The notes: generated by a model from the letters alone, not told the origin. DNA of 64,000 nucleotides from Candidatus Obscuribacteraceae bacterium (GCA_044226015.1 JBGAHS010000003.1:640001-704000), one strand, 5' to 3'; counted from the stretch's first letter, positions 53,160-61,899 are shown. Made by a program: numbers and translations.

Positions 53160-53735
53160 ATGCATGACATGCACATGATGATGGGCGCAGCCTGCTGCTC
53201 ATCAGGACATTCCACCGAATGGATGTCTTATCTTGGACTCTTCCTCTCGATGCTGTTCGGAGCATTCCATGCTTCGCGCATGTTCCAGAAGACGTGCCGC
53301 CAGGGTGAAGACGCTTGCCACCTGTTCATGTATGCCGGCATGGCCTACATGTTCATTCCCAACCCTGAGCTTCACGTCATCCCCGGCTCGCTCTGGGCTC
53401 TGGCGTTCAGCATCACGGCGCTTCTTTCCGTCACCAAGATGTATCGCACTCAAAACGCTTCCACTAGCGGCGTCCTGCATACGCTCATGAACCTCGCCAT
53501 GGCCAGCATGTTCGTCGTGCTGCCAGGTGCAGAATTCACCAACACGCTCTGGAACGTGTTCTACGGCGTTTACATCGGCTTCTACGCGATCAAATTCTTC
53601 TCGCCCCAAGCTGCCATGGAAGGTGGCACCGGCGATCGCTTCAACCCTGCACTCGTCTACAACGTTTCCAACATCGTCATGGCAGCTCTGATGCTCGCTA
53701 TGACTCTCACCCCCATGTGCATGCACATGGGCTAA
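53160..53735 (+). CDS. Met/His-rich polytopic membrane protein (DUF5134-like)
   Basis: MHDMHMMM start, HLFM..GMAYM, HTLM.LAM..M, ends PMCMHMG. Confidence 0.7.
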   Translation: MHDMHMMMGAACCSSGHSTEWMSYLGLFLSMLFGAFHASRMFQKTCRQGEDACHLFMYAGMAYMFIPNPELHVIPGSLWALAFSITALLSVTKMYRTQNASTSGVLHTLMNLAMASMFVVLPGAEFTNTLWNVFYGVYIGFYAIKFFSPQAAMEGGTGDRFNPALVYNVSNIVMAALMLAMTLTPMCMHMG

Positions 53736-53770: not shown

Positions 53771-53956
53771 ATGCTCACAACCATCGCAACTCTGGCTTTC
53801 GGTGCCCTTTTCGGCATCGTCCTCGCGAAGAAGACCGCGGCTTGCTGCAGCACGCCCGACGGACAGAAGTTCAAGTTCGCGAACTTCTTCTCTGGCGGCT
53901 GCAAGTGCAAGTCATCTCCCGGCTCGCCTTGCCGCTGCGGTGACTGCAGCTGCTGA
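53771..53956 (+). CDS. Membrane-anchored Cys-rich peptide (metallothionein-like)
   Basis: TM segment followed by CC, CKC, CRC, CSC (8 Cys in 61 aa). Confidence 0.65.
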   Translation: MLTTIATLAFGALFGIVLAKKTAACCSTPDGQKFKFANFFSGGCKCKSSPGSPCRCGDCSC

Positions 53957-54563: not shown

Positions 54564-55175
54564 AAACCGCTTTTTGAAACCCGGTTTACGCTGTACGCAC
54601 GCTTTTTTGTATCAGTTGTCTTCGGTTCGACAAAAGTTGCTGCTACCACCAATAACACCATAACCTCACAGCAGCGATTACCAGAAATGGTACGCAAAAC
54701 TGTCACCTCAGCAGCAAACATTAACCAGTAAGGCACTGGGAAATTCCACCAACTTTTCCATTTTAAAGTGCCGCAAAGATCTGTAATCTTGTAAACAACT
54801 GCTTATTACCTATTTGCTAATCAGAGCAAGAAAAAACCGAAAACGGCTTAATACCATACGTCACGCCCAAGTGTTCGATATGCCATGTGCAAGCTGGGCC
54901 AGGAATACTTAGGCTACAAAAAAACTAAGAGCCGCAGCATATACCGCATAAAGTCACGCTTTCCGGTGCCGCCAGAGCGCAGCTGCATTTGACTGAGGCA
55001 ACGCAATCATAATAAACCATGACTGTCTCTCTCATTTCGTTCAGCATCAGGTCCCTCCAAACAGACCGTCCTACCACAAAAAACGAAGCGACCTCATGCC
55101 TACGCCGTGTGAGAGATAGACAGCCATGTTCGCGTTCGGACAGTTCAACCCCCAACTCCGCAACAGGAGAGCACT

Positions 55176-55259
55176 ATGCCCAACAACAACCAGACCACCG
55201 TCCTCATCTACATCGCGCTGATGTTCCTCTTCATCTTCGCGATGTCCGGTCACCACTGA
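55176..55259 (+). CDS. 27-aa single-TM peptide, copy 1
   Basis: MPNNNQTTVLIYIALMFLFIFAMSGHH*; AGGAGA RBS. Confidence 0.75.
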   Translation: MPNNNQTTVLIYIALMFLFIFAMSGHH

Positions 55260-55320
55260 CCGCCGGCCACTCGCAATTCGGCGAGCAGTCCATCCACCCG
55301 CTCCGCAACAGGAGAGCACT

Positions 55321-55404
55321 ATGCCCAACGGCAATCAGGTCTACGTCCTCATCTACATCGCCATGATGTTCCTCTTCATCTTCGCGATGTCCGGTCACCA
55401 CTGA
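55321..55404 (+). CDS. 27-aa single-TM peptide, copy 2
   Basis: MPNGNQVYVLIYIAMMFLFIFAMSGHH*; AGGAGA RBS. Confidence 0.75.
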   Translation: MPNGNQVYVLIYIAMMFLFIFAMSGHH

Positions 55405-55469
55405 CCGCCGGCCCGCTCGCAATTCGGCGAGCTAGCCACCATCCACCCACTCCGCAACAGGAGATCACC

Positions 55470-55553
55470 ATGCCCAACGGCAACCAGGTCTACGTCCTCA
55501 TCTACATCGCCATGATGTTCCTCTTCATCTTCGCGATGTCCGGTCACCACTGA
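55470..55553 (+). CDS. 27-aa single-TM peptide, copy 3
   Basis: Same peptide as copy 2 with a synonymous AAT/AAC change; AGGAGA RBS. Confidence 0.75.
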   Translation: MPNGNQVYVLIYIAMMFLFIFAMSGHH

Positions 55554-56435
55554 CCGTCGACAGACTACTCAGTCTTCATTGACTGAGTGAGGATTCTTCC
55601 TGTTCACGTTTCAACCAGACCGGGATGAAGCGGAAAGGGTGCTTAACAGCACCCTTTCTTGCTTCCGAGCGTTAGTGTCTTTATGAATCAGTAAACCGTC
55701 GCTGAGATTTTACATTTTTTTCGCCACTTTTTTGTCCTTTTCGCCGCTGTTTGGTACCATGCGGCGCCATGAGGATCGTATTTCCAAGGCAAATAAAGTC
55801 GACGGCCAATTTCATTGAGCCAGTCCAATTTCTTTTTGCATTTTAAATCGCAAATTGGCGAGTACTGTTTTTGAATTTACTCTGTTCCAAACCACGCATA
55901 GCATGCCGACTCATTCTCTATTCCGGAATAGACAGCTGCATATAAACAAGCTGATTGCCAAATCAACCAACAGCAAATTTAGCAGTCAGAACTACAATTA
56001 CCCACAGTTGTCTGCAAGAGGATCCACACCCTAGCAAGGCCCTGCTAAGCAACGAAATGTGACAATGCTTCTATTCGTTGAATGCGCATTGCACCAGCGC
56101 GCAAGACGCCTTAGGGTAATAATAACCTTTCACTGTACGTAGCACTCCCGAATTTTCCAGAAACAACGACCTGATATCACAAACCAGCACATTGATGTGA
56201 CAACACCACATCTGGTATCAGTCGTCTGGCGTGCAGGAGGAAGGCTTGAGTCATACCCGCACGACCGGCATGTCCGCTCGATGACGGCACTTTGGCGCAA
56301 ATAGCAGTTAAACGCGACAGGCTTCGGCTTGCCGCTAAACAGGGCTATTTGCGATGCTGCGTTTGAAAGAGCAAATACAGACAGTCCTGCTTGGCACCAG
56401 AAAGACCTGTCGCTTCAAATGCGAAGGGTCTAAAA

Positions 56436-58681: not shown

Positions 58682-59407
58682 TTACTTCTTCTCCGACTCC
58701 TTCTTCAGCTCGTCGAGCGCGTCCTGACCTTCCTTCTTCTTCTTCTCTTCCTCGAGGCGGTCCTTGGCGCTGTCCTTGTCCATGTCGCGCTTGGCGCGCT
58801 CCTTCTCCAGCTCTTCGTCGATCTGCTTGTCGGCGTCGGCGAAGCCGCCCATGCCGTCCTGGATCTCCTTCAGCTGGTCGCGGACCTCGTTCTCGATGCG
58901 CAGCGCCGCCGTCAGCTCGACCTTGCCTTCGTTGGTCTGGATCTGGTCGGCAGCCTTGGACAGCAGCTCCGCCGTCGAAGCCAGCGCCTTGCGCGATTCC
59001 TCGGCCGACGCGTTGAACTCGGCGACGGTCTTCTTGTAGTTCTCGACCTTCGCGGCGGCGGCCTTCCAGTCGCGGGCGAGCGACTGCTGGTCGGCCTCGC
59101 TCATGTTCATCTTGACGGCGTCGAGCGCGCGCTGCTTGGCGGCGTCGGAAGCTTCCTGCAGCTTGTCGAGCTGCTTCTTCGCTTCGACCGACTTGGCGAT
59201 GGACGACGCGACCGAGTCACGCTGCTTCTTCGAGAGCGCCACGAGCTGGGCGTACTGCTGCTTCTGCTTCTCCAGCGGCGTGGTCGAGCCCTTCACGAGC
59301 TTGTTCCACCAGATGCTGATCGCATCGCGGGTCGGCTTGTGGAAAACGGCAACGCCCACGGCGAGAGCAGCGGCGCCAGCGATGATGAGGTTCGTGTCGA
59401 TGACCAT
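58682..59407 (-). CDS. PspA/IM30-like coiled-coil protein with an N-terminal hydrophobic anchor, copy 1
   Basis: 241 aa; P-L-E..., VA..IA, RA..A, LAR, GF...., C-terminal DALDELK pattern typical of PspA; AAGGAG RBS. Confidence 0.8.
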   Translation of the reverse strand: MVIDTNLIIAGAAALAVGVAVFHKPTRDAISIWWNKLVKGSTTPLEKQKQQYAQLVALSKKQRDSVASSIAKSVEAKKQLDKLQEASDAAKQRALDAVKMNMSEADQQSLARDWKAAAAKVENYKKTVAEFNASAEESRKALASTAELLSKAADQIQTNEGKVELTAALRIENEVRDQLKEIQDGMGGFADADKQIDEELEKERAKRDMDKDSAKDRLEEEKKKKEGQDALDELKKESEKK

Positions 59408-59419
59408 ACGTATTCTCCT

Positions 59420-59600
59420 TCGTGCAGTGTTCTGCAAAAATTGATGCCCGAATTTGTTGAGCGCGTGAGCAAGGTCCGCGCTGTAAGCAGGAACGGCACA
59501 AGCACCCGGCGGAAGCCGAGCGACTCATGCCACTACAAATGGTGTCGTTCCATCTGCAGTAGAAACCTCTCCGTAAGGAGAAAAGGTTTCTGCCGCAGAC
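59420..59600 (-). promoter_or_regulatory. Conserved structured leader upstream of PspA-like copy 1
   Basis: Stem sequences shared with 60432..60656 while the loops differ. Confidence 0.5.
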
Positions 59601-59693
59601 TGACGCTCAGGGTGGCAGCCTGGCAATGCCAAACTGCCACCCCTTGCGTTTTAGTCAGAACTCAGCGAGTCGAGTCCAGCCGGCGAAGAAGGG

Positions 59694-60419
59694 TTACTTC
59701 TTCTCGCCTTCCTTCTTCAGCTCGTCGAGCGCGTCCTGGCCGTCCTTCTTCTTCTTCTCGTCTTCGAGGCGGTCCTTGGCGCTGTCCTTGTCCATGTCGC
59801 GCTTGGCGCGCTCCTTCTCCAGCTCTTCGTCGATCTGCTTCTCGGCATCGTTGAAGCCGCCCATGCCGTCCTGGATCTCCTTGAGCTGGTCGCGGACCTG
59901 GTTCTCGATGCGCAGGGCCTCGGTCAGTTCGACCTTGCCTTCGTTCGTCTGGATCTGGTCGGCGGCCTGCTGCAGCAGCTGGGCGGTGGCGACGAGAGCC
60001 TTGCGGGCTTCGTCGGCCGACGCGTTGAACTCGGCGACGGTCTTCTTGTAGTTCTCGACCTTCGCGGCCGCGGCCTTCCAGTCGCGGGCGAGCGACTGCT
60101 GGTCAGCCTCGCTCATGTTCAGGCGGACGGCGTCGAGCGCGCGCTGCTTGGCGGCGTCGGACTCCTCCTGCAGCTTGTCGAAGCGCTTCTTCGCCACGAC
60201 CGACTTGGCGATCGAGCTGGCGACGTTGTCGCGCTGCTTCTTCGAGAGGACCACCAGCTCCTGGTAGCGCTTCTTCTGCTTCTCGAGCGGCGTGGTGGCG
60301 CCGTTGATGAGCTTGTTGTACCAGATGCTGATCGCGTCGCGCGTCGGCTTGTGGAAGATGGCCACGCCAACGGCGAGAGCAGCGGCGCCAGCGATGATGA
60401 GGTTCGTGTCGATAACCAT
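59694..60419 (-). CDS. PspA/IM30-like protein, copy 2 (most divergent)
   Basis: 241 aa from MVIDTN after AAGGAG; colinear with copies 1 and 3. Confidence 0.8.
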   Translation of the reverse strand: MVIDTNLIIAGAAALAVGVAIFHKPTRDAISIWYNKLINGATTPLEKQKKRYQELVVLSKKQRDNVASSIAKSVVAKKRFDKLQEESDAAKQRALDAVRLNMSEADQQSLARDWKAAAAKVENYKKTVAEFNASADEARKALVATAQLLQQAADQIQTNEGKVELTEALRIENQVRDQLKEIQDGMGGFNDAEKQIDEELEKERAKRDMDKDSAKDRLEDEKKKKDGQDALDELKKEGEKK

Positions 60420-60431
60420 AGTCAAATTCTC

Positions 60432-60656
60432 CTTAGTGCAGCGTTGTAGCTGCGGTTTGGTGCTGTCCATTGTTTGCGAAAGCGCGTGGACAGCGAGGCG
60501 CGCTGTGAACAGAAACGACATTGCATCCGGTCTTGCATCCTTTGCCGAAGCAGCGGAAACCAGTCCAGAAGCACATGACACTACAGACAGTGGCGACCAT
60601 CTGCAGTAGGAGTTGCTAGCACCCGTTATGGATTGCTAACAACCACTGCCGCAGAC
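60432..60656 (-). promoter_or_regulatory. Conserved structured leader upstream of PspA-like copy 2
   Basis: Same stems as 59420..59600. Confidence 0.5.
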
Positions 60657-60706
60657 GAGACGGCAGCCCAGATAAATCTGAGCTACCGCCCGCCTTCAGA
60701 ACGACT

Positions 60707-61054
60707 TCAGTTCTTGACGAACAGGCGTCCGACCATCGCCGCGATGAACAGGCTCATGCTGGCACCGTAAGTGCCCTGCAGGATGAACATCGGAATGGTG
60801 GCGCCGGCGTACCAGAGACCGCCAAGAACAGCAGCAACGAGCAGCGCCGGAACCAGCCGCTTCAGAGCCTCGCTGCCGGACGGACCAGCGTAGAGGTAGA
60901 GCGAAAAGTAGGCGCTGACCAGCAGTCCAACAGCCGCACCAGCCGCACCGCTGACGTAGTCAACGGTCGGACCAAGGCTGAAGAGAAAGCCAGTGATGAC
61001 GCCCGACACCATCCACGTGGTGGCAATCGGGTTATTCTTGATCCACTGAATCAT
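60707..61054 (-). CDS. Small 4-TM membrane protein between PspA-like copies
   Basis: AAAGGA RBS; four hydrophobic segments. Confidence 0.8.
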   Translation of the reverse strand: MIQWIKNNPIATTWMVSGVITGFLFSLGPTVDYVSGAAGAAVGLLVSAYFSLYLYAGPSGSEALKRLVPALLVAAVLGGLWYAGATIPMFILQGTYGASMSLFIAAMVGRLFVKN

Positions 61055-61173
61055 GGATAAGCAGTCCTTTCTTTGCTTTGAGATTTGTTGTTCAACGAAA
61101 ACACCCGAGAGTGCGATGATTGCTCACCAACACTCCCGGGTGTGACGTCAGTTCAGGCGCCGGCGAAGAAGGG

Positions 61174-61899
61174 TTACTTCTTCTCCGACTCCTTCTTCAG
61201 CTCGTCGAGCGCGTCCTGACCTTCCTTCTTCTTCTTCTCTTCCTCGAGGCGGTCCTTGGCGCTGTCCTTGTCCATGTCGCGCTTGGCGCGCTCCTTCTCC
61301 AGCTCTTCGTCGATCTGCTTGTCGGCGTCGGCGAAGCCGCCCATGCCGTCCTGGATCTCCTTCAGCTGGTCGCGGACCTCGTTCTCGATGCGCAGCGCCG
61401 CCGTCAGCTCGACCTTGCCCTCGTTCGTCTGGATCTGGTCGGCAGCCTTGGACAGCAGCTCAGCCGTCGAAGCCAGCGCCTTGCGCGACTCCTCGGCCGA
61501 CGCGTTGAACTCGGCGACGGTCTTCTTGTAGTTCTCGACCTTCGCGGCCGCGGCCTTCCAGTCGCGGGCGAGCGACTGCTGGTCGGCCTCGCTCATGTTC
61601 ATCTTGACGGCATCGAGCGCGCGCTGCTTGGCGGCGTCGGACTCCTCCTGCAGCTTGTCGAGGTGCTTCTTCGCTCCGACCGACTTGGCGATGGACGACG
61701 CGACCGAGTCACGCTGCTTCTTCGAGAGCGCCACGAGCTGCGCGTACTGCTGCTTCTGCTTCTCGAGCGGCGTGGTCGAGCCCTTCACGAGCTTGTTCCA
61801 CCAGATGCTGATCGCATCGCGGGTCGGCTTGTGGAAGACGGCGACGCCCACGGCGAGGGCAGCAGCACCAGCGATGATGAGGTTGATGTCGATGGTCAT
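61174..61899 (-). CDS. PspA/IM30-like protein, copy 3
   Basis: 241 aa; nearly identical to copy 1. Confidence 0.8.
   Translation of the reverse strand: MTIDINLIIAGAAALAVGVAVFHKPTRDAISIWWNKLVKGSTTPLEKQKQQYAQLVALSKKQRDSVASSIAKSVGAKKHLDKLQEESDAAKQRALDAVKMNMSEADQQSLARDWKAAAAKVENYKKTVAEFNASAEESRKALASTAELLSKAADQIQTNEGKVELTAALRIENEVRDQLKEIQDGMGGFADADKQIDEELEKERAKRDMDKDSAKDRLEEEKKKKEGQDALDELKKESEKK

What the first reader, a model, noticed from the sequence alone, without database searches (positions are those of the whole stretch)
55155..55665. Triplicated 27-codon membrane microprotein cassette
Seen: three tandem units, each with an AGGAGA RBS and MPN(N/G)NQxxVLIYIA(L/M)MFLFIFAMSGHH*. The units are separated by a short CTCGC-AATTCG-GCGAG hairpin and followed by a terminator-like stem (about 55632-55660). 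The cassette sits isolated in about 1.9 kb with no long ORFs. Coding length is fixed at 84 nt while the spacers carry indels, which fits selection on the peptide. All three are below the ORF-track cutoff. Inference: a dosage-amplified single-TM peptide, such as a type I toxin-like peptide, a membrane-complex regulator, or a His-His metal-binding or signalling peptide.
Basis: partly seen in the sequence, partly recalled or inferred. Interest (0 to 1): 0.8.

Follow-up and report, generated by a model that had tools for sequence, protein, structure and literature searches.

The report
Triplicated tiny membrane-peptide gene
Three back-to-back copies of an overlooked 27-amino-acid gene likely make a small membrane peptide of a rare, uncatalogued family in non-photosynthetic relatives of cyanobacteria; it most likely acts as a helper or stress peptide in the membrane rather than as a toxin or metal binder, and the triplication itself may be incidental.

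Summary
Three 27-codon ORFs (period 145/149 nt) each have an AGGAGA 5 nt before ATG, inside a 1.9-kb intergenic gap. Contigs from a separate study carry both junctions.

Coding is well supported:
- Codon use matches this genome's GC3-rich gene class (4 of 4222 comparable intergenic ORFs score as high; three are these).
- Five distinct homologues exist elsewhere (24, 37 and 38 aa). All start M(P)NGNQ and keep the hydrophobic helix.

Triplication needs no special selection, since the genome has 103 tandem arrays outside long ORFs (only this one has an RBS-led ORF in its unit).

Some type I toxin search criteria are met (small, TM, tandem, isolated, local anti-SD). But the peptide has no K/R/D/E, one terminator is shared, and no convincing antitoxin complement was found.

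Best reading: a new, rare family of single-pass small membrane proteins (YohP/accessory-peptide kind) on one predicted three-cistron mRNA. No partner is identified, and no RNA or ribosome data were available. A bolder, unexcluded reading is a conserved membrane leader carrying a swappable C-terminal peptide.

The parts
54989..55013 (+). Possible promoter, TTGACT ... CATAAT with a non-canonical 13-nt spacer; would start an RNA near the base of the leader hairpin (inferred, weak)
   Evidence: Read directly; not called by the sigma-70 scan (2 sites found against 1.9 expected, both on the minus strand)
55016..55130 (+). Long imperfect hairpin upstream of copy 1, predicted 5' leader stem
   Evidence: -33.6 kcal/mol, z -3.1 on +; -52.7, z -4.2 on -; no real homologue in 107 genomes
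55156..55170 (+). Copy 1 RBS (AGGAGA 55165-55170) with a 4-bp CUCC/GGAG hairpin
   Evidence: SD paired with upstream bases, P 0.93
55176..55259 (+). Copy 1 ORF, 27 aa, differs from copies 2/3 at 4 residues
   Evidence: codon log-likelihood 16.7
55270..55286 (+). Spacer hairpin after copy 1
55301..55315 (+). Copy 2 RBS (AGGAGA 55310-55315) with anti-SD hairpin
   Evidence: P 0.79
55321..55404 (+). Copy 2 ORF, MPNGNQVYVLIYIAMMFLFIFAMSGHH
   Evidence: codon log-likelihood 13.9
55415..55432 (+). Spacer hairpin after copy 2
55450..55464 (+). Copy 3 RBS (AGGAGA 55459-55464) with anti-SD hairpin
   Evidence: P 0.86
55470..55553 (+). Copy 3 ORF, same peptide as copy 2 (one synonymous change)
   Evidence: codon log-likelihood 15.9
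55566..55589 (+). 9-bp hairpin after copy 3 (different from the repeated spacer hairpin)
55633..55665 (+). Shared terminator-like stem (11 bp) with short pyrimidine tail, symmetric enough to act on both strands (inferred)
   Evidence: region z -5.3; z -3.9 on +, -6.8 on -

Best explanation
The cassette is three tandem copies of a 27-codon ORF that likely encodes a translated, uncharged single-pass inner-membrane peptide of a rare M(P)NGNQ-start family, predicted to be made from one three-cistron mRNA and likely to act by helix-helix contact in the membrane as an accessory or stress peptide. Shown: the ORFs, RBSs, repeats, codon bias and homologues. Inferred: transcription from about 55020 to the terminator at about 55660; post-translational insertion with the N-terminus out and C-terminus in (a Lys follows the helix in all long homologues; positive-inside rule recalled); action through the conserved Asn-x-Asn-Gln cap and helix, since the C-terminal tail varies from almost nothing to 14 residues. 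The three copies likely arose through the tandem duplication that is common in this genome; any dosage benefit is untested. Whether the contact is with itself (YohP-like) or with a larger membrane protein (AcrZ/MgtS-like) is not resolved; no partner gene travels with it.
For: Codon bias: 35 of 36 two-way NNY/Ile codons end in C, against a genome median of 0.45. 4 of 4222 intergenic ATG ORFs of 22-32 aa reach a codon log-likelihood of 13.9 or more under a model trained on 58 GC3-rich genes, and three are these copies. Homologues: G003 24-aa ORF with its own GGAGA RBS (E 2.8e-4 with one query), 6 of 8 replacements against copy 2 conservative by BLOSUM62 >= 0; P0002, P0003/P0006, P0004/P0005 of 37-38 aa (4 hits among 1.84 billion proteins; 5 of 15 candidates). 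Their upstream extensions look unrelated to each other, which places the start at M(P)NGNQ. Invariant columns: M1, N3, N5, Q6, L10, M16, F17, I20, F21. Best 18-residue window mean Kyte-Doolittle 2.3-2.7, hydrophobic moment 0.27-0.50, zero K/R/D/E. AlphaFold2 of P0003 gives one helix, residues 3-37, mean pLDDT 80.5, 7-row alignment. RBS opening energy 8-13 kcal/mol lies within the range of 63 island genes, though copy 2 is in the top 11%. Other tiny SD-led hydrophobic ORFs in the same codon style occur in this genome and around the G003 homologue. YohP is a 27-aa, mainly N-out/C-in stress peptide (PMC12719787, passages).
Against: No expression data. No partner: loci of 14 other genomes with the downstream deoxyribosyltransferase gene and 3 with the upstream 154-aa gene show no family member within 1.5 kb, and the G003 copy sits beside a ClpP-like gene. 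The family is patchy (strong hits in 2 of 401 class genomes), so it is not a core accessory subunit. The window copies lack the tail conserved in the 37-38-aa members and could be shortened alleles. The SD is predicted paired locally (P 0.79-0.93, against 9 of 63 island genes above 0.6), a toxin-mRNA-like feature. No canonical promoter was called. The codon score also rewards any GC3-rich DNA of island origin.
Confidence: 0.55

Rival explanations
1. A type I toxin-antitoxin locus: the peptide depolarises the membrane and is held silent by the anti-SD hairpin, the structured leader and an unidentified small RNA.
For: Meets the search criteria of PMC2887945 (passages): under 70 aa, TM, tandem in one intergenic region, 669 nt from the upstream gene (threshold 400) and over 830 nt from the downstream gene (threshold 250). 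A short anti-SD just upstream of the SD is a determinant named in PMC8594479 (passages); it is present in all three copies and, with other letters, in G003 (P 0.59). The leader is long and structured. One leader/downstream-flank duplex of -30.1 kcal/mol beat 8 shuffles. A minus-strand TANNNT box lies at 55567.
Against: No K/R/D/E in the peptide, whereas most membrane toxins have positively charged C-terminal residues, with IbsC, ShoB and DinQ as exceptions (PMC8309996 section 2). Spacers of 61-65 nt and one shared terminator leave little room for per-copy promoters or antitoxins. RBS duplexes with four flanking strands were no better than shuffles; the longest perfect complement to the leader was 8-9 nt, at chance level. 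The -30.1 duplex is matched by 4 of 110 genomic controls and was the best of four comparisons. RBS opening energy is within the island range, CDS folding is mostly explained by codon choice (z -0.6 to -2.2), and the codons fit high expression. No Rfam match above noise.
Confidence: 0.17
2. The window copies are shortened, drifting alleles of a 37-38-aa membrane peptide, multiplied by this genome's general tandem-repeat process with no selected function of the array.
For: 103 TRF arrays of period 40 or more lie mostly outside long ORFs; 77 non-intragenic tandem-duplication loci; a triplicated coiled-coil gene lies 3 kb away. The tail of the long members is absent here. Copy 1 versus 2: 4 non-synonymous against 2 synonymous codons. 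An orphan 36-nt piece of the unit lies in decayed DNA on contig C1.
Against: All three frames, RBSs and stops are intact. Copies 2 and 3 differ by 1 of 84 coding bases (synonymous) but 3 of 31 leader bases plus spacer indels. An independently short form (24 aa) with intact RBS exists in G003. This is the only one of the 103 arrays whose unit carries an SD-led ORF. I saw no frameshifted remnant of the long tail after the stop (read by eye).
Confidence: 0.14
3. A leader-plus-core precursor: the conserved hydrophobic part is an export or processing leader and a variable C-terminal piece is released, a hydrophobic 9-10-mer in the long members and Gly-His-His here.
For: The N-terminal 23-24 positions are conserved while the tail varies. 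The long members share small-Lys-small before Ala, then Glu/Thr-Leu-Ile/Leu-Pro and a hydrophobic end in Gly or Ser. This resembles streptococcal SHP pheromones, which are C-terminal fragments starting at Asp/Glu (PMC3679016, passages). In the window, Ala-Met-Ser precedes Gly-His-His, fitting the recalled -3/-1 rule. Met/His/Cys-rich genes lie 1.2-2 kb upstream.
Against: No basic n-region. The G003/P0001 form ends with the helix and has no core. P0002 has Thr, not an acidic residue. No regulator, transporter or maturase family was found in the 13 neighbours scanned against Pfam. SHP/Rgg is described from Gram-positive bacteria (listing). No cleavage predictor was available, and the gene context of the long members could not be read.
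Confidence: 0.1
4. A repeated structured non-coding RNA whose ORF is incidental.
For: The unit folds better than shuffles on the + strand (z -3.8), as does the whole region (z -9.9, inflated by repetition).
Against: Folding is largely reproduced by synonymous resampling. The G003 homologue keeps the peptide but not the fold (z +0.2) or the spacer hairpin. Protein-level homologues exist. No Rfam family.
Confidence: 0.04

Closest known systems
E. coli YohP and other stand-alone small membrane proteins (PMC12719787 passages; PMC12648545 abstract and sections 10, 13)
   Same: 27 aa, one predicted TM helix, too short for co-translational SRP targeting, likely N-out/C-in, no catalytic capacity
   Different: No sequence match was found in any library searched; YohP dimerises through a glycine motif, while this helix has no conserved Gly; here three copies share one predicted mRNA; stress induction is untested
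Accessory small membrane proteins AcrZ, MgtS, MgtU (named in PMC12719787 passages)
   Same: Single helix with conserved residues that could dock on a larger membrane protein
   Different: No partner identified or co-located; family found in only 2 of 401 class genomes
Tandem type I toxins Ibs/Sib, Ldr/Rdl, ZorO/OrzO (PMC2887945 passages; PMC8309996 section 2; PMC8594479 passages)
   Same: Small hydrophobic ORFs repeated in one isolated intergenic region; local anti-SD hairpin; structured leader
   Different: No charged residues, 61-65 nt spacers with one shared terminator, no antitoxin complement above chance, codon use of highly biased genes
Streptococcal SHP pheromone precursors (PMC3679016 passages)
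   Same: Short hydrophobic precursor; the long homologues end in a hydrophobic stretch after Glu (four of five records), mostly ending in Gly
   Different: No adjacent Rgg-type regulator; window copies have no acidic residue and no such tail; host is in Melainabacteria

Membership tests
Small single-pass membrane protein (SMP) | ORF of 50 aa or fewer with RBS and coding signature | tested here: met
Small single-pass membrane protein (SMP) | One hydrophobic helix long enough to span the membrane | tested here: met
   18-residue mean KD 2.3-2.4; single helix in homologue P0003
Small single-pass membrane protein (SMP) | Translation and membrane location shown | not testable with these tools
   Needs Ribo-seq, proteomics or a tagged construct
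Type I toxin-antitoxin | Small TM ORF, tandem, isolated (>400 nt upstream, >250 nt downstream) | tested here: met
   criteria
Type I toxin-antitoxin | Charged or positively charged C-terminal residues | tested here: not met
   Zero K/R/D/E in the window copies, only two His; exceptions exist among toxins
Type I toxin-antitoxin | SD sequestered by an anti-SD | tested here: inconclusive
   4-bp local hairpin, P 0.79-0.93, against 9 of 63 island genes above 0.6; opening energy within the island range
Type I toxin-antitoxin | Antisense or trans small RNA complementary to the mRNA, with its own promoter | tested here: inconclusive
   No trans complement above chance after four comparisons; no antisense promoter over the ORFs, one bare TANNNT box; a cis RNA cannot be excluded without RNA data
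Type I toxin-antitoxin | Toxicity on expression | not testable with these tools
   Bench test
SHP/Rgg pheromone precursor | Adjacent rgg-type regulator gene | tested here: not met
   Neighbours are a 154-aa protein of no family and a nucleoside deoxyribosyltransferase
SHP/Rgg pheromone precursor | Mature C-terminal peptide starting at Asp/Glu | tested here: not met
   No acidic residue in the window copies or in G003; Glu present in P0003-P0006, Thr in P0002
His-His metal-binding peptide | Conserved His residues across homologues | tested here: not met
   0 of 5 distinct homologues carry His at the C-terminus
Any catalogued protein or RNA family | Match to Pfam, NCBIfam, PHROGs, PDB, ESM Atlas clusters or Rfam | tested here: not met
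   best E 0.18; best E 2.9; best score 0.86, below 0.9

The most novel reading that the evidence does not exclude
The family is a modular precursor: a conserved M(P)NGNQ-plus-helix leader with an exchangeable C-terminal core. The core is a pheromone-like hydrophobic peptide in the long members and a Gly-His-His metal chelator here, amplified threefold. That would be a peptide export or signalling system in Melainabacteria, encoded among strings of other tiny membrane ORFs in a GC3-rich chromosomal zone.
Probability: 0.1. Interest if true: 0.75.

Novelty: new member of a known kind. Interest (0 to 1): 0.36.

Why it matters
It adds an uncatalogued microprotein family, shorter than the ORF cut-off of the first stage, in an uncultured lineage. 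My three literature searches pairing this lineage with small proteins or small ORFs returned nothing. Natural variants of 24, 27, 37 and 38 aa give a ready-made truncation series for asking which part acts. It also points to a wider hidden layer of tiny membrane ORFs in the GC3-rich zones of these genomes. The kind of object, a small hydrophobic peptide in tandem copies, is well known, and no mechanism or partner is shown, so the interest is moderate.

Tried and rejected
- Further copies in the own genome: none by blastn, nhmmer, tblastn or a family HMM (next best E 0.22); only a 36-nt orphan spacer piece on C1.
- DNA search of 60 relatives: 0 hits.
- Metagenome contig scan: 335 pattern matches, 1 passed. 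It is an AT-rich stretch with no ATG or RBS, rejected as chance.
- Viral contigs, plasmids and phages: none.
- Weak genome hits: I translated 18 of them (12, 6); none starts with the family motif. The other weak hits were not read.
- Spacer-hairpin pattern: 19 of 106 other genomes have one-mismatch hits, with reversed-control hits in 13 genomes; the 20 loci read share no context.
- Leader DNA: hits in 11 of 15 genomes of one genus; the ones read are a chance match at the tsf-pyrH junction.
- Synteny with flanking genes: none.
- G003's flanking hairpins are not repeated elsewhere in 5 genomes.
- An AT-rich upstream motif shared with G003 is not enriched in the island.
- Sequencing runs: no RNA holder listed. 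Runs X6-X11 gave only short flank pieces or loose matches.
- ESM Atlas: no usable hit.
- Gene context of P0002-P0006 could not be read.
- Earlier scan notes: nothing on this locus or sequence; genome-wide lists showed 8 of 22 and 8 of 10 notes, none on this subject.
- Literature on Gly-His-His with copper gave only two materials papers, seen as listings, so its chelating property is recalled. The YjcZ/SscA search was uninformative.
- timed out and was redone; one search stopped before its last part, which was redone.

Full report
OBSERVATION. The window holds three 27-codon ORFs at 55176-55259, 55321-55404 and 55470-55553 on the + strand. They form a direct repeat of 121 nt with spacings of 145 and 149 nt. 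Each has AGGAGA 5 nt before ATG. Copies 2 and 3 encode the same peptide and differ by 1 of 84 coding bases (synonymous), against 3 of 31 leader bases. Copies 1 and 2 differ at 9 of 84 bases, in 4 non-synonymous and 2 synonymous codons. The repeated hairpin follows copies 1 and 2; copy 3 is followed by another hairpin and an 11-bp terminator-like stem at 55633-55658. A 115-nt imperfect hairpin lies upstream at 55016-55130 (z -3.1 on +, -4.2 on -). The triplication is genuine: contigs of run X2, from another study, cross both junctions and show 25.5-fold depth on the shared core against about 12 on the flanks, and X5 crosses junction 1/2, though no piece spans the whole array.

HOST AND SETTING. 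The genome has 8.19 Mb in 13 contigs. A GTDB record titled Candidatus Obscuribacterales (L042) encodes the same 24-aa homologue as the same-genus genome G003, which places the host in Melainabacteria. Most genes have GC3 near 0.45. A class of GC3-rich genes is concentrated in about 0.73 Mb (C6 375-853 kb, the ends of C1 and C8, the start of C9), and the cassette lies in the densest part. Neighbours are a 154-aa protein of no family and a nucleoside deoxyribosyltransferase. Neither travels with the peptide in relatives (16 loci of 14 genomes and 3 loci of 3 genomes, 1.5 kb each side).

IS IT CODING? Of 36 two-way NNY/Ile codons in the three ORFs, 35 end in C (genome median 0.45). Under a codon model from 58 GC3-rich genes, 4 of 4222 intergenic ATG ORFs of 22-32 aa score 13.9 or more, and three are these copies. 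A protein search of 107 order genomes found one further hit below E 0.001, in G003: a 24-aa ORF with its own GGAGA, ATG and stop. It lies in a string of other tiny hydrophobic ORFs of 18, 32 and 52 aa separated by hairpins, downstream of a ClpP-like gene. Six of its 8 replacements against copy 2 are conservative. A profile search of 1.84 billion proteins gave 4 hits and a second search 5 of 15 candidates. With a cluster member these amount to five distinct mature sequences outside the window, of 24, 37 (two) and 38 (two) aa. All begin M(P)NGNQ; the longer upstream extensions of three records look unrelated to each other, so they are probably gene-caller artefacts. With the enlarged profile only G000 and G003 gave strong hits among 401 class genomes; 18 weak hits that I translated were not family members. 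No Pfam, NCBIfam, PHROG, PDB, Atlas or Rfam family matches. A non-coding reading is unlikely: the unit folds well (z -3.8), but synonymous resampling reproduces most of it (z -0.6 to -2.2) and G003 keeps the peptide without the fold (z +0.2).

WHAT THE HOMOLOGUES CHANGE. Length is not fixed across the family, and His-His occurs only in the window. What is conserved is the Asn-x-Asn-Gln cap and an uncharged helix (18-residue mean hydropathy 2.3-2.7, moment 0.27-0.50, no K/R/D/E in the short forms). A model of P0003 is one helix (7-row alignment, little information beyond that). The long forms add a Lys after the helix, which by the positive-inside rule (recalled) suggests N-out/C-in, followed by a conserved hydrophobic tail.

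IS THE TRIPLICATION SPECIAL? Not necessarily. TRF finds 259 arrays of period 40 or more, 103 of them mostly outside long ORFs. Self-BLAST finds 77 non-intragenic tandem-duplication loci, 12 in the GC3-rich zone and 65 elsewhere, among them a triplicated coiled-coil gene 3 kb away and a duplicated 39/40-aa membrane ORF on C9. However, this array is the only one of the 103 whose unit carries an SD-led ORF, and all three frames are intact. Dosage selection is possible but unshown.

MECHANISM. My best reading (0.55) is a small single-pass membrane protein made from one predicted mRNA (about 55020-55660; the promoter is only a TTGACT/CATAAT pair with 13-nt spacing, not called). Like other such proteins it would be inserted after translation (PMC12648545 section 10) and act through helix contacts, either with itself as the 27-aa YohP does or with a larger membrane protein (PMC12719787 passages). 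Translation, topology and partner are inferred.

A type I toxin (0.17) meets the tandem, TM and isolation criteria of PMC2887945 (passages) and has a short anti-SD of the kind named in PMC8594479 (passages): P 0.79-0.93, against 9 of 63 island genes above 0.6, and 0.59 in G003. Against it: no charged residues (PMC8309996 section 2, which lists three exceptions), little room for per-copy antitoxins, an RBS opening energy within the island range, and no complement above chance in four flanking strands. One leader duplex of -30.1 kcal/mol was equalled by 4 of 110 controls and was the best of four comparisons, so it stays inconclusive. A cis-antisense RNA cannot be excluded.

Drift of shortened alleles (0.14) and a leader-core precursor (0.10) remain. 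The latter rests on the conserved-leader, variable-tail pattern, on a resemblance of the long tails to SHP pheromones (PMC3679016 passages) and on a recalled signal-peptidase rule. It fails the SHP membership features in the window, and G003's form has no core.

LITERATURE AND LIMITS. Searches for Obscuribacterales or Obscuribacter with small protein(s), and Melainabacteria with small open reading frames and transmembrane, returned 0 papers; the library lacks most subscription journals. I read passages or named sections only, as cited, and no supplements. Supplementary Table S7 of PMC2887945 lists tandem candidates for Proteobacteria and Firmicutes and was not opened. No RNA data, oligomer fold or gene context for the long homologues was available.

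VERDICT. A real, overlooked microprotein gene, triplicated, belonging to a rare uncatalogued family: a new member of a known kind (small single-pass membrane proteins). Interest 0.36; it would rise to about 0.75 if the tail proved to be a released signal or chelator.

Noticed in passing
G000 C6:375-853 kb, C1:1125 kb-end, C8:700 kb-end, C9:0-50 kb (window lies inside): About 0.73 Mb in which roughly 5-80% of genes per 25-kb bin use a strongly GC3-rich codon set, against almost none elsewhere; contiguous with ordinary chromosome. G003's contig C24 shows the same style.
   Followed up: partly
G000 genome-wide (one search list): 103 tandem arrays of period 40-290 nt lie mostly outside long ORFs; many units contain GGTACC-, GGATCC- or CGATAGC-type cores, clustered on parts of C1, C4, C7 and C11. 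Unexplained.
   Followed up: no
window 58682-61899 (-): Three tandem paralogues of a ~241-aa N-terminally anchored coiled-coil protein (PspA-like by recall; no Pfam match above cut-off), downstream of a 545-aa coiled-coil gene.
   Followed up: no
window 53160-53735 and 53771-53956 (+): A Met/His/Cys-rich membrane protein (weak DUF5134 match, E 0.0013) followed by a 61-aa ORF with a hydrophobic start and a Cys-rich, metallothionein-like tail (resemblance recalled); possible metal-handling pair.
   Followed up: no
L004:1155-1932 (-) (G003): String of four tiny hydrophobic ORFs (18, 32, 24, 52 aa); two copies of a long imperfect palindrome flank the 24-aa homologue; the 18-aa ORF recalls the TatA membrane helix (recalled, untested).
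   Followed up: partly
L080:5723-6210 (-), L081:2008-2530 (-), L082:1534-1629 (+): More SD-led tiny hydrophobic ORFs (19, 23, about 30, 31, 39, 40, 40 aa) in the GC3-rich zone of this genome, some in strings and one duplicated; no NCBIfam match for the three tested.
   Followed up: partly
L002:1501-1536 (G000 C1:697320-697355): Orphan 36-nt copy (92%) of the unit's stop-plus-hairpin segment, without the ORF, between a decayed response-regulator gene and lexA; also present in run X2.
   Followed up: partly
G000 C10:356333-358584: Array of 18 tRNA genes within 2.3 kb.
   Followed up: no
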